Below, piece by piece: positions 4,284 to 7,668 of a stretch of DNA of 64,000 nt. Each line of letters begins with the position of its first letter. Positions within the stretch are counted from its first letter, which is position 1. The notes beneath the pieces are model-generated. The model searched no databases. It saw only the letters and a list, made by a program, of their open reading frames with translations, and was not told where the DNA came from. A program made the translations under genes and the position numbers. Source of the stretch: a phage; NCBI GenBank assembly GCA_016389475.1, contig GCA_016389475.1_3042.1. The stretch is one strand, 5' to 3'.

Positions 4284-4709
4284 TTATTCCTTAAAGTGTG
4301 CTTTCAACATCTGATACAAAGACCATGCCTGTTCATTATTTTCAATAGTAACTTTCATGACCGGGAATTCTGTGAAATCTTCTATTTGTTCTTGCTCTTT
4401 CTCTTCCTGCTCTTGCTCTTCAGCTGCCTGGTATGGATTTTCCACTTCATCAAAGAACACAGCTTCACTCGTTGAAAGCCAGATAAAATCTTCATCCAAA
4501 ATATCTTTACCAGAAGATAACGCCAATTTTCCACTAGATGTCACAAGTTTAGTAGGACGACCAAGATAGTCAATATCTGTAACTCTAAAAGGTTCCATAC
4601 CAAGACGTCGTGCATAAATTCCGTTTTCAGTATGGTCCTTGATAAAATCTTCTTGAGCTTGTTTATTTTTAAATTGATACCATTTATTAACTTCAAATTT
4701 AATAGCCAT
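4284..4709 (-). CDS. goF: GoF (comC-alpha)-position protein, 141 aa from the ATG
   Basis: ORF track ORF begins at an upstream TTG; ATG at 4709 shares one base with upstream stop (TAATG); acidic [12 protein letters not shown] stretch; assignment by position and length. Confidence 0.5.
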
Positions 4710-4924
4710 TAATAAGTTTCCTTCCAATAAGTTGTACCATCTTCAGTAATTTCGCGAAACACACCATAAATTGGTTGTTTATCACCAACTTTTTCGTACA
4801 CATAAACCGAAGTCAAGTGAGTAAACTTGATGGTGTGTTCCTTTTGAACTACTACAAGATTTGGATCAAATAATACATCTTCAAATTCGTCATTAGTGCA
4901 ATTCTGAACAATTTTACGTTTCAT
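4709..4924 (-). CDS. hypothetical protein (71 aa), cef position
   Basis: ORF track; positional only. Confidence 0.45.
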
Positions 4925-4937
4925 TACAATTTCCTCA

Positions 4938-5207
4938 TTAATTGAACAGTGGAGCGATGCGTTTCAGAAGAGTAGCAGCACCTTTAGCGAATTTTACATC
5001 ATGAAAAACAGTTTCTTCTTCCGTTACAACACGAGCTTTAATGTTTTCACAATCCCAATTTTTGCGAACAATCTTCAAAAGCTGCAGTAAATCTTTACAT
5101 TCAGCAATATCGATAACACATCCACGAGAATTTTCCATTATCGCACGATAACCGTAAGCCATACCATAATCGTTGAAAGATTGCTCGATGATAATTAAGT
5201 TTTCCAT
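4938..5207 (-). CDS. hypothetical protein (89 aa from ATG)
   Basis: ORF track (start given as TTG at 5219); ATG at 5207 preceded by GGAG RBS; first gene behind a promoter-like leader. Confidence 0.5.
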   Translation of the reverse strand: MENLIIIEQSFNDYGMAYGYRAIMENSRGCVIDIAECKDLLQLLKIVRKNWDCENIKARVVTEEETVFHDVKFAKGAATLLKRIAPLFN

Positions 5208-5304
5208 TTTATTCTCCAAGTTATTTTCTGTATCAGTAGTTGATATTGATATAGTACCATAATCAACTACTGATGTATATAGTTTTATGAAAAAATTTTA
5301 AACT

Positions 5305-5802
5305 TTATGCATAGCGAGCTTTGCTATAGTGTTTAATCCAACTTTCAGGAATGACTTTGTATGTTCCTAAAAATACCGCGTTGTACAGCTTAACACCGTC
5401 TTCTACCCACTGATCGGTAATGTATGCGCACATAGCACGAGTACGGTGTTTTTGAACAACCCCTTCCTCATCTTCAGTAAATTCGAATTCATAAGGAGCA
5501 ACGAACTTAATAGCCTGACCGAGTTTCCACTTAAAGTCTACACCTACATGCGAAGTATCAATCGTTTCAATTCCTTTAGCAGGAACAGCTTTCAAAAACG
5601 CAGATTCAAGAAATTTCGCACGAACATAGCCAAACTGAGGTTTAGACTTTCCATCTTTAGGAATGATACGCACTTTTACTTCAGAATCTTCATCTTTAAC
5701 GCCGTGTTTAAGCTGAATGCTTACAATTTCGACCAATTTTCCCGCTGCTTTAGAACGGGATTTATCAGATACACGAGCAATTTCACCAATATTAATAATC
5801 AT
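5305..5802 (-). CDS. MotB-position protein (165 aa), paralog of next gene
   Basis: ORF track; C-terminal ITDQWVEDGVKLYNAV motif shared with 5879-6418 product. Confidence 0.55.
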   Translation of the reverse strand: MIINIGEIARVSDKSRSKAAGKLVEIVSIQLKHGVKDEDSEVKVRIIPKDGKSKPQFGYVRAKFLESAFLKAVPAKGIETIDTSHVGVDFKWKLGQAIKFVAPYEFEFTEDEEGVVQKHRTRAMCAYITDQWVEDGVKLYNAVFLGTYKVIPESWIKHYSKARYA

Positions 5803-5878
5803 AGTTATCTCTCACTTGTTAAAAAGATTTTATACTCCACAGGACCATTATACTCTGGTCCCAAGAGTTTGTAAACTA

Positions 5879-6418
5879 TTAATTCAAAATAGCTACCACT
5901 GCACTACGAGGTACTACGCTAAAATCACCTGCATGAACAACGTTCAGAAGTTCAACACCATCTTCAATCCATTGGTCTGTTACCCAACCACAGACCGAAA
6001 TAAATGGAGTCTTGATAGCTACCGCATGAGTTAGAAGGTCAGTAGGATCGCATTCTTGAAAGAGGATGAACTCTGCTTCAAAAACTATAGTTTTAATTAC
6101 TTCATCATTATCTAAACGGCGTACTCGAATCACGTAAGCTTTATTCTTATCATACCAGTTACTTTTTGAAAAGCTTTTAACCACAAACTCGCCTTCACCA
6201 AAAGCATTAGTCAATGCTTTATAACCCAAATTTAGTTCAGTAGTTTTAATTTCAGTTTCAACCAGTTTGTAGGTTTTGCCGATTTCAATAGCGGTAGTCA
6301 TAGTAGGTTCCTTAATTTCCAGTGGTTTAACAGGGCATACATAAGTGCTTACAACATCAAAATCAATCAGTTTAGCTACCGGATTTGGTATGTATTCAGG
6401 ATTATAATTAAATTTCAT
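5879..6418 (-). CDS. hypothetical protein (179 aa), paralog of 5305-5802
   Basis: ORF track; C-terminal VTDQWIEDGVELLNVV motif. Confidence 0.55.
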   Translation of the reverse strand: MKFNYNPEYIPNPVAKLIDFDVVSTYVCPVKPLEIKEPTMTTAIEIGKTYKLVETEIKTTELNLGYKALTNAFGEGEFVVKSFSKSNWYDKNKAYVIRVRRLDNDEVIKTIVFEAEFILFQECDPTDLLTHAVAIKTPFISVCGWVTDQWIEDGVELLNVVHAGDFSVVPRSAVVAILN

Positions 6419-6420
6419 AA

Positions 6421-6921
6421 TTATCTCATTTCAATAAAATCTACAAGTTCAGCATGGGATTTACGGAACATTACTTGATGCCCACCAATGATAACTTGGT
6501 CATCTGGTACTTCGTATACAGCGAGATAAAATCCTTTAGAAGATAATTCTTCCCGCTCTTCTCGTGTGAACCATCTCATCATATCATATTCGCTAGCGAA
6601 AGCAAAATGATAAAGAGCTATAAACCATCCTGGAATATGATATTCTACTCCAACATAATCTTTCTTGAACTTAGTATTAATTACTATATTAGCGTTTTTA
6701 ACTAATAGTTTATCTTCGTGTGGTAAAGGAATTCTTTTATTATTATCGCTATGATGCATAAAATTAGGTCTGTCATAACCTACGTGTAATAGCCACTCTT
6801 CGCTCCATGAATCTATTATACTCCTGTACGGCGTTATTTGAACACAAAGATTTCGACGTATTGTTATAGCATCTTCATAATCAAGAATACTAAACGATGA
6901 TTCAACACGATAAATTTTCAT
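6421..6921 (-). CDS. hypothetical protein (166 aa from ATG)
   Basis: ORF track start is a TTG upstream of the promoter -10; ATG at 6921 with GAGGA RBS lies downstream of promoter. Confidence 0.55.
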   Translation of the reverse strand: MKIYRVESSFSILDYEDAITIRRNLCVQITPYRSIIDSWSEEWLLHVGYDRPNFMHHSDNNKRIPLPHEDKLLVKNANIVINTKFKKDYVGVEYHIPGWFIALYHFAFASEYDMMRWFTREEREELSSKGFYLAVYEVPDDQVIIGGHQVMFRKSHAELVDFIEMR

Positions 6922-6948
6922 TTTATTATCCTCAGTAGCTATGGTGTT

Positions 6949-6978
6949 ATAATACCACAACTAACCGAGGAAGTAAAC
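6949..6978 (-). promoter_or_regulatory. T4-type early promoter
   Basis: gtaaac at 6973-6978, ataata (TATTAT) at 6949-6954, 18-nt spacer. Confidence 0.55.
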
Positions 6979-6984
6979 AACTTT

Positions 6985-7668
6985 TTATCGTTTTGTTGGA
7001 AGAGATAGAGGATCGCACTCTTCCTCTGACGGAGCATCTTCAAGACCCATAGCGTATCGCAAAGCATACTTCATCATCAGGATGTCTTTCGCACAGTCAT
7101 GAATAGAATCATGTGCAACGAATCCATCTAAAGTTCCCTTTGGAAGAGGGCAAGTGGTCATATCACGAACAAGGAGAAGTGCTTCAATTCTAGTACGAAT
7201 GTCGCGTTGATTCCAGAATTTACACGGTTCTAACTTAAATGTATCAAGCTCATTCTCGGAAACGCCGTTAAGACGTTGAATATCGCGAATGAGATCGACT
7301 AAAATTGGAAAATCAAACGACATTCCACGGCACCAACCTTGAGATTTCCAAGGATCGATGTTATGTGCATTGATGTAATCATTGAATTTTGCAATACCAT
7401 CGATAGTGCTTACATCTTCATCTGATGGTGCAATATTTTTTCTAGCTTCAGGAGATTGATTCTTCCACCATTCGATAGTGCTTTTAGTAAAAAGACGATG
7501 TCCTTTTTGACTTTTTAAGTCAAATTTAATTTTAATGCCACGTGAAACTAGTTCATCGAATGTTTCAACAACTTCCGGGTTAGGGTCAAAAGCAATTACA
7601 GCCAAATCAATAACAGCTGCTTTTTCACCGCTTCCCATCGTTTCAAAATCTATAATAAAATCAAACAT
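6985..7668 (-). CDS. dexA: exonuclease A (3'-5' DEDD exonuclease)
   Basis: ORF track 227 aa; MFDFIIDFETMGSGEKAAVIDLAV Exo I motif; size and position match T4 DexA. Confidence 0.85.
   Translation of the reverse strand: MFDFIIDFETMGSGEKAAVIDLAVIAFDPNPEVVETFDELVSRGIKIKFDLKSQKGHRLFTKSTIEWWKNQSPEARKNIAPSDEDVSTIDGIAKFNDYINAHNIDPWKSQGWCRGMSFDFPILVDLIRDIQRLNGVSENELDTFKLEPCKFWNQRDIRTRIEALLLVRDMTTCPLPKGTLDGFVAHDSIHDCAKDILMMKYALRYAMGLEDAPSEEECDPLSLPTKR

What the first reader, a model, noticed from the sequence alone, without database searches (positions are those of the whole stretch)
5305..6418. Tandem paralogs at the motB locus
Adjacent 165-aa and 179-aa proteins share a conserved C-terminal block (ITDQWVEDGVKLYNAV vs VTDQWIEDGVELLNVV) and similar overall organisation, indicating a local duplication followed by divergence. 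T4 MotB is a DNA-binding early protein; a duplicated copy could have altered specificity.
Basis: seen in the sequence. Interest (0 to 1): 0.4.

Follow-up and report, generated by a model that had tools for sequence, protein, structure and literature searches.

The report
motB and motB.1 share a tail domain
Two neighbouring early genes of a T4-like phage (motB and its upstream neighbour motB.1) really do share a short C-terminal protein module, but this partial relationship is conserved across T-even phages and was already published in 2021, so the finding is real and ordinary.

Summary
The window is a Tequatrovirus (99.2% identical to Shigella phage ESh30). The 165-aa ORF (5305-5802, minus strand) is full-length MotB (Pfam PF17613, 331 bits). 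The 179-aa ORF (5879-6418, minus strand) sits where T4 has motB.1 and is a divergent allele of that gene.

The shared C-terminal block is real: 16/32 identical residues, BLASTP E=5e-11, z=15.7 against shuffles, hhalign 98.6% over 38 columns. The N-terminal two thirds show no similarity (81% of shuffles score at least as high). MotB is basic (pI 9.2) with a KOW-like N-domain. The 179-aa protein is acidic (pI 4.9) and has a constrained N-terminal peptide followed by a barrel homologous to the T4 MotB.1 N-domain, which has been published as LSm-like. The relationship is therefore old domain-level paralogy (49% nucleotide identity in the block), not a recent tandem duplication.

Patterson-West et al. 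2021 (PMC7827196) already described the shared C-terminal domain, the different N-domains and a possible duplication, and their table lists close homologues of this very protein.

By-products:
- The T4 reference record carries a one-base frameshift that truncates MotB.1 to 119 aa; other T4 records encode 143 aa.
- The N-terminal part of motB.1 is a diverged cassette between flanks that are 93-95% identical.
- A short conserved peptide motif occupies different positions in different family members.

The parts
5305..5802 (-). motB: 165-aa MotB (stop codon included). Basic N-terminal KOW-like barrel (aa 1-68, net +5), low-confidence linker (aa 69-83), neutral C-terminal domain (aa 89-165).
   Evidence: Pfam PF17613 full length, 331.6 bits, E=9e-100. 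phrog_1671 E=2e-76. 88% identical to the T4-type MotB cluster P0128. AF2 model pLDDT 79. Charges. dN/dS 0.0-0.2 in the N- and C-terminal domains.
5326..5439 (-). Shared C-terminal block in MotB (aa 122-159, RAMCAYITDQWVEDGVKLYNAVFLGTYKVIPESWIKHY).
   Evidence: hhalign aligned columns. HMM hit at 5326-5436, 75 bits.
5803..5878 (-). 76-bp intergenic region with a sigma-70/T4-early-type promoter for motB (TTTACA, 17 nt, TATAAT; 5875 to 5847). A hairpin carries the -10 hexamer in its loop.
   Evidence: Promoter scan, 11 of 12 matches. RNA fold -22.1 kcal/mol, z=-3.1. The same sequence is present in T4.
5879..6418 (-). motB.1-locus gene: 179-aa acidic protein (stop codon included), a divergent allele of T4 motB.1.
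   Evidence: Synteny dexA - motB.2 - this gene - motB - cef, as in T4 and KIT01, where the homologue is labelled motB.1. phrog_2333 E=2e-81. PF17613 matches only aa 141-174, 34.1 bits. hhalign against T4-type MotB.1 gives 99.9% over 104 columns. BFVD hit to T4 P39415, E=6e-6. dN/dS 0.05-0.45 in all segments.
5888..6001 (-). Shared C-terminal block in the 179-aa protein (aa 140-177, ISVCGWVTDQWIEDGVELLNVVHAGDFSVVPRSAVVAI).
6083..6295 (-). N-terminal barrel of the 179-aa protein (aa 42-112). Colinear with the T4 MotB.1 N-domain, which has been published as LSm-like.
   Evidence: AF2 secondary structure, pLDDT about 70-78. Alignment A6. hhalign reaches back to aa 72. PMC12152347 for the T4 N-domain.
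6302..6418 (-). N-terminal 39-codon extension. Predicted disordered, and carries the conserved peptide motif DxD-hydrophobic-xxx-Y-xx-P-hydrophobic-x-P (aa 19-32, DFDVVSTYVCPVKP).
   Evidence: pLDDT about 30 for aa 1-41. Many invariant residues in 19 homologues. dN/dS 0.05-0.19 and an in-frame 2-codon insertion in KIT01. The same motif lies in-frame in linkers of other family members.
5992..6432 (.). Segment with no nucleotide match to T4, covering codons 1-142 of motB.1. It is flanked by sequence 93-95% identical to T4, so the N-terminal part of the gene is a diverged or exchanged cassette.
   Evidence: blastn of window against T4. DNA alignment across the boundary.

Best explanation
The two ORFs are the early genes motB and motB.1 of a Tequatrovirus. 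They are domain-level paralogues. They share one C-terminal beta-rich module of roughly 60-70 residues, of which only the last 38 are strongly conserved. That module is joined to N-terminal small beta-barrels of different lineages. The family is modular: the module always lies at the C-terminus of 100-250-aa phage proteins, behind a KOW-like barrel, one or two MotB.1-type barrels, or other N-terminal segments, often together with a short DxD..Y..P peptide motif.

Shown by others, for T4 MotB (88% identical): MotB binds DNA tightly without sequence specificity, copurifies with H-NS and StpA, changes H-NS footprints, derepresses H-NS-silenced genes and doubles burst size.

Inferred here: MotB's basic KOW-like N-domain (net +5) supplies most of the electrostatic DNA affinity. 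The shared module is neutral in MotB and acidic in MotB.1, and its conserved residues are D-Q-W-x-E-x-G...L-x-N-x-V. It is therefore more likely a common scaffold or interaction module (self-association, a shared partner, or aromatic stacking on nucleic acid) than a duplicated DNA-specificity determinant.

The acidic 179-aa MotB.1 therefore probably does something different from MotB. Its function remains unknown.
For: Identity and synteny.

Extent of homology.

Homology of the 179-aa protein to T4 MotB.1 over 104 columns: and (BFVD hit to P39415).

Modularity: a scan of 1.84 billion representative proteins finds only 36 with E<=0.001. In the roughly 27 that are family members (100-250 aa) the module lies at or within a few residues of the C-terminus. 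The others are fragments (P0261, P0267) or long repeat proteins matched in several short stretches. They include proteins with a MotB-type KOW N-terminus and a MotB.1-type C-terminal domain (P0247, P0249, P0250, P0252, P0253, P0255, P0256, P0258).

Charges.

Purifying selection on all segments.

Published biology: PMC6070864, PMC7827196, PMC12152347.
Confidence: 0.8

Rival explanations
1. A whole-gene tandem duplication of an ancestral KOW-plus-C-terminal-domain motB. The N-terminal domain of one copy then diverged beyond sequence recognition.
For: The genes are adjacent and co-oriented. Both products are an N-terminal small barrel plus the shared C-terminal domain. Both models hit the same SH3-like fold classes. 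Proteins with a KOW-type N-terminus and a MotB.1-type C-terminal domain exist and could be intermediates. The 2021 paper also suggests duplication.
Against: There is no residual similarity in the N-terminal parts, and hhalign stops at 38 columns. The MotB.1 N-domain is grouped with GoF and Frd.2, not with KOW domains, in PMC12152347. The N-terminal part of motB.1 behaves as an exchangeable cassette between conserved flanks, which favours replacement by recombination.
Confidence: 0.15
2. The block is similar because of recent gene conversion or recombination between the two neighbouring genes, not because of old common ancestry.
For: The genes lie 76 bp apart, and T-even phages recombine very actively (established knowledge).
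Against: The two blocks are only 49% identical at the nucleotide level over 114 nt. Each block is much closer to its orthologue in other phages; the window and T4 are about 93% identical across the motB.1 block. The two types keep distinct signatures across the family, KLYN.VF against ELLNVVH.
Confidence: 0.02
3. The similarity is chance or compositional, or the 179-aa ORF is not a real gene.
For: None beyond the short length of the block.
Against: z=15.7 against shuffles, and hhalign E=7e-16. The ORF is conserved in at least 384 phage records at 80% coverage or more. dN/dS is 0.05-0.45.
Confidence: 0.01

Closest known systems
T4 MotB (Pfam PF17613; Patterson-West et al. 2018 and 2021)
   Same: The 165-aa ORF is its orthologue: a full-length PF17613 match, the same position between cef and motB.1, and 88% identity to the T4-type cluster.
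   Different: Nothing substantive. It is three residues longer than T4 MotB, and its most variable region is aa 69-121.
T4 MotB.1 (P39415; 'Category 2-4' MotB.1 group of PMC7827196; LSm-like family of PMC12152347)
   Same: Same locus. Same C-terminal domain signature (DPTDLL...GWVTDQWIEDGVELLNVVHAG..SVVPRS). Colinear N-terminal barrel (hhalign 99.9%, 104 columns).
   Different: The 179-aa allele has a 39-residue N-terminal extension with the DxD..Y..P motif, which T4 lacks. Its N-terminal barrel is strongly diverged, with no nucleotide match to T4 over codons 1-142. The T4 reference product is also artificially short (119 aa) because of a one-base frameshift in that record.
GoF and Frd.2 (T4 LSm-like fold proteins)
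   Same: Published structural relatives of the MotB.1 N-domain. goF lies about 1 kb downstream in the window (4284-4727).
   Different: They lack the MotB-type C-terminal module. I did not test the relationship for this allele, and no Pfam or PHROG cross-hit was seen.
Tudor, KOW and PWWP SH3-like small beta-barrels
   Different: There is no sequence relationship. It is unknown which domain of each model produced the hits. The published HHpred assignment for the MotB C-terminal domain is OB-fold.

Membership tests
MotB (PF17613) | Full-length match to the 162-position Pfam model | tested here: met
   The 165-aa ORF matches aa 1-165 to model positions 1-162, 331.6 bits. The 179-aa ORF matches only model positions 120-153 (34.1 bits, above the 25-bit cut-off), so it carries the C-terminal module only.
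MotB (PF17613) | Basic N-terminal KOW-like domain with the conserved VS..S.SK.AG motif | tested here: met
   The 165-aa ORF has it (alignment A3; net +5). The 179-aa ORF does not, so the 179-aa protein is not a MotB.
MotB (PF17613) | Nonspecific DNA binding and H-NS/StpA association | not testable with these tools
   Known only for T4 MotB (PMC6070864, PMC7827196).
MotB.1 | Gene located between motB.2 and motB, same strand | tested here: met
MotB.1 | MotB.1-type C-terminal domain signature (DPTDLL...GWVTDQWIEDGVELLNVVH) | tested here: met
   About 93% nucleotide identity to T4 over the last 37 or so codons.
MotB.1 | N-terminal barrel homologous to the T4 MotB.1 N-domain | tested here: met
   hhalign 99.94%, E=3e-37, aligned from aa 72 to 179. 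Colinear MAFFT alignment from aa 42. BFVD TM-score 0.60 over all 119 residues of P39415. The first 30 or so residues of the barrel align only weakly.
LSm-like fold family (GoF, Frd.2, MotB.1) | Five-stranded bent antiparallel sheet in the N-domain, related to GoF and Frd.2 | tested here: inconclusive
   The AF2 model shows strand, helix, then three strands in aa 49-111 at pLDDT about 70-78. No direct comparison with GoF or Frd.2 was possible.
OB-fold / cold-shock domain (published assignment of the MotB C-terminal domain) | Structural neighbours are OB-folds | tested here: inconclusive

The most novel reading that the evidence does not exclude
The shared C-terminal module could be a common oligomerisation or partner-binding domain. 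In that case the acidic MotB.1 would work together with, or against, the basic MotB at H-NS-DNA complexes. The exchangeable N-terminal cassette and the movable DxD..Y..P peptide would then tune which host target is engaged. All published negative results for T4 MotB.1 would need re-examination, because they appear to have used the 119-aa product of the frameshifted reference sequence, which lacks the last 28 residues of this module.
Probability: 0.1. Interest if true: 0.5.

Novelty: already known. Interest (0 to 1): 0.15.

Why it matters
The paralogy itself adds nothing new, because it is in the 2021 MotB paper. What could matter in practice is the by-product. The T4 reference genome (NC_000866.4 / AF158101.6) mis-states MotB.1 as a 119-aa protein lacking half of the module it shares with MotB. 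The 13.8-kDa protein used in the 2025 functional study matches that truncated form. Anyone studying MotB.1, or the function of the shared module, should use the 143-aa sequence, or a natural full-length allele such as the 179-aa protein in this window.

Tried and rejected
- **Third paralogue in the window:** a profile of the block scanned against all six frames found only the two copies. MotB.2 is unrelated, despite 'transcriptional regulator' labels in some records.
- **Solved structures by sequence:** searches with both proteins and with the C-terminal-domain profile gave nothing significant.
- **Anti-defence or defence annotation (PADLOC):** no hits.
- **Alternative start at Met40 of the 179-aa ORF:** it has a strong AAGGA Shine-Dalgarno sequence, and some records annotate 140-141-aa products. 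I rejected it as the only start because codons 1-39 are under the strongest constraint in the gene (dN/dS 0.05-0.19) and carry a motif conserved in-frame elsewhere. Internal initiation as an additional product is not excluded.
- **Recent gene conversion between the blocks:** rejected because of the 49% nucleotide identity.
- **NAR 2021 MotB paper (doi 10.1093/nar/gkab678):** not held in the library, so its domain data could not be consulted.

Full report
**What the locus is.** The window is a Tequatrovirus. A 2.1-kb stretch around the finding is 99.2% identical to Shigella phage ESh30 and matches 639 phage records. All genes here are on the minus strand, in the T4 order: dda, dexA.2, dexA.1, dexA (6985-7668), motB.2 (6421-6960 as an ORF; the T4-equivalent ATG is at 6921), the 179-aa gene (5879-6418), motB (5305-5802), an extra 93-aa ORF (4938-5219), cef (4709-4924) and goF. 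The 165-aa protein is MotB along its full length (PF17613, 331.6 bits; phrog_1671). The 179-aa protein occupies the position of T4 motB.1. In phage KIT01 the homologue is annotated motB.1 in the same context.

**Check of the observation.** The C-terminal block is real. BLASTP gives 16/32 identities with E=5e-11. The Smith-Waterman score is 105 against 29.9 +/- 4.8 in 2000 shuffles, z=15.7. hhalign between family alignments gives 98.6% and E=7e-16, but over only 38 columns (179-aa protein aa 140-177; MotB aa 122-159). Pfam's motB model matches the 179-aa protein only at model positions 120-153. The N-terminal parts are not similar: 81% of shuffles score at least as high. The block is 49% identical at the nucleotide level, so the relationship is old. 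There are exactly two copies in the window.

**Anatomy of the two proteins.**
- The AF2 model of MotB (pLDDT 79) has an N-terminal five-stranded barrel (aa 1-67), a low-confidence linker (aa 69-83) and a C-terminal beta domain (aa 89-165).
- The AF2 model of the 179-aa protein (pLDDT 63) has a disordered N-terminus (aa 1-41), a mixed alpha/beta barrel (aa 49-111) and a C-terminal beta domain (aa 114-178).
- With the blocks in register, the last three strands coincide exactly and the preceding two roughly. The common fold therefore probably spans about 60 residues, although only 38 are well conserved.
- MotB is basic (pI 9.2; N-domain net +5; C-terminal domain net 0). The 179-aa protein is acidic (pI 4.9; net -7; C-terminal part net -8).

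**Relation to T4 motB.1.**
- Pairwise BLASTP against the 119-aa T4 reference product aligns only aa 111-151.
- With family alignments the relationship is clear. hhalign between the 179-aa family and the T4-type family gives 99.94%, E=3e-37, over 104 columns reaching back to aa 72.
- MAFFT aligns the two N-terminal barrels colinearly, with T4 Met1 falling near residue 42 of the 179-aa protein.
- Foldseek against BFVD hits T4 P39415 over all 119 of its residues (E=6e-6, TM-score 0.60).
- The 179-aa protein is therefore a divergent motB.1 allele with a 39-residue N-terminal extension.
- At the nucleotide level the window and T4 are 93-95% identical on both sides, but there is no blastn match for window 5992-6432, which covers motB.1 codons 1-142. 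The boundary falls exactly at the start of the shared block.
- Both allele types are common: 384 records carry the 179-aa type and 341 the T4 type at 80% coverage or more.

**The N-terminal extension is coding.** Residues 1-40 are highly conserved in 19 homologues. dN/dS for codons 1-39 is 0.05-0.19, the lowest in the gene, and KIT01 has an in-frame two-codon insertion there. The extension carries a peptide motif, D-x-D-[VI]-x-x-x-Y-x-x-P-hydrophobic-x-P. The same motif recurs in-frame in the linker between the N- and C-terminal domains of T4-type variants (P0282, P0289, P0294, P0297, P0246). It also recurs directly before the DPTDLL start of the C-terminal domain in proteins with a KOW-type N-terminus (P0249, P0252, P0255, P0256). 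hhalign between the T4-type and MotB alignments extends to 73 columns and places this motif opposite MotB's VDFKWKL strand. That placement is weak (22% identity). I record it only as a lead that the motif may be the first element of the ancestral C-terminal domain.

**Distribution.** A profile of the C-terminal domain, searched against 1.84 billion representative proteins, finds only 36 with E<=0.001. Apart from a few long repeat proteins that look spurious and two fragments (P0261, P0267), all are 100-250-aa proteins with the module at or within a few residues of the C-terminus. N-terminal architectures seen in these proteins are:
- a KOW-type barrel, joined either to a MotB-type or to a MotB.1-type C-terminal domain;
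- one or two MotB.1-type barrels;
- an extra N-terminal segment;
- a 43-aa fusion of the MotB.2 N-terminus to the tail of the module.
The family is small, confined to phages and modular.

**How it most likely works.** Shown by others for T4 MotB: it is toxic when expressed, binds unmodified and glucosyl-hmC DNA without sequence specificity, copurifies with H-NS and StpA, alters H-NS footprints, up-regulates H-NS-repressed genes and doubles burst size (PMC6070864, PMC7827196). Shown by others for T4 motB.1: it is an early, dispensable gene, its N-domain is predicted to be LSm-like, and it had no effect in an RNA-reporter assay (PMC12152347). My inference is as follows. The shared module is the only part common to a basic DNA binder and an acidic protein, and its conserved residues are acidic, aromatic or hydrophobic. 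It is therefore more likely a structural or interaction module than the element that sets DNA specificity. MotB's DNA affinity probably resides largely in its basic KOW-like N-domain. This inference is untested.

**Novelty.** The shared C-terminal domain, the different N-terminal domains, the tandem position and the duplication hypothesis are all stated in PMC7827196 (section 3.2 and discussion). Its supplementary homologue table lists HY03_0194 (92% identical to the window protein), RB32ORF010c and the ime09 motB-like protein. The finding is therefore already known. Only two papers in the searchable library mention motB.1, and neither mentions a frameshift.

**By-product: a frameshift in the T4 reference.**
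- In NC_000866.4 / AF158101.6, motB.1 reads ...TGGATTGGAAGATGG... The window, T4T (HM137666) and T4 MT984581 read ...TGGATTGAAGATGG....
- The extra G ends the reference ORF after 119 aa. The remaining 28 residues of the conserved module are still encoded downstream in another frame.
- A frameshift-corrected 143-aa query matches 13 other T4, RB55 and RB59 records in one piece at 100% identity. Only the two reference records need two pieces.
- In the protein collection the 143-aa form (P0280) is seen on 256 contigs, and the 119-aa form (P0291) on 2.
- The 2025 study describes MotB.1 as a 13.8-kDa protein and cites NC_000866.4 for its constructs. It therefore appears to have used the truncated form.

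**Regulatory context.** The 76-bp spacer between the two genes holds an 11/12 sigma-70-type promoter (TTTACA, 17 nt, TATAAT), so motB has its own early-type promoter. A hairpin places the -10 hexamer in its loop (z=-3.1). A 13-bp-stem hairpin follows motB at 5232-5274 (z=-5.2).

Noticed in passing
L001 3292-3651 (T4 NC_000866.4 record 7291-7650); the equivalent of window 5879-6001: The T4 reference record has one extra G in motB.1 (TGGATTgGAAGATGG), which truncates the product to 119 aa. 13 other T4, RB55 and RB59 records and the window encode the full module. The intact 143-aa form is seen on 256 contigs and the 119-aa form on 2. The 13.8-kDa MotB.1 used in PMC12152347 matches the truncated form.
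   Followed up: yes
window 5992-6432: Codons 1-142 of motB.1 have no nucleotide match to T4, although the flanks are 93-95% identical. The 179-aa type and the T4 type each occur in about 340-380 phage records, so this is a dimorphic cassette whose left boundary is the start of the shared block.
   Followed up: partly
window 6314-6370 (aa 17-35 of the 179-aa protein); also P0246, P0249, P0252, P0255, P0256, P0282, P0289, P0294, P0297: The conserved short peptide motif DxD[VI]xxxYxxP-hydrophobic-xP sits at the N-terminus in this allele. In other family members it sits in the linker between the N- and C-terminal domains or directly before the C-terminal domain. Its partner or role is unknown.
   Followed up: partly
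window 4938-5219 (minus strand): A 93-aa ORF (phrog_3720, unknown function) lies between cef and motB. T4 has no counterpart; it has only a 170-bp gap there.
   Followed up: no
window 5232-5274: A near-perfect 13-bp-stem hairpin lies just downstream of the motB stop codon (-20.2 kcal/mol, z=-5.2), without a U-tract. It is conserved in T4.
   Followed up: partly
window 5836-5865 within the 5803-5878 spacer: A hairpin whose loop contains the -10 hexamer of the motB early-type promoter (z=-3.1). It would form only in read-through transcripts from upstream.
   Followed up: partly
window 6421-6960 (motB.2): There is a weak Pfam hit to the SRA (SET and RING associated, 5mC-binding) domain: E=0.09, 13 bits, well below the cut-off. 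A sequence search of the PDB gave nothing. It is probably noise, but curious in a phage with modified cytosine. Separately, the mechanical ORF starts at a TTG (179 aa), whereas T4 annotates the ATG that gives 166 aa.
   Followed up: partly
P0261 (43 aa, metagenomic): A natural deletion variant fuses the first 17 residues of MotB.2 to the last 26 residues of the MotB.1 module. It resembles the 29-aa 'Category 3' peptide reported for RB69.
   Followed up: no
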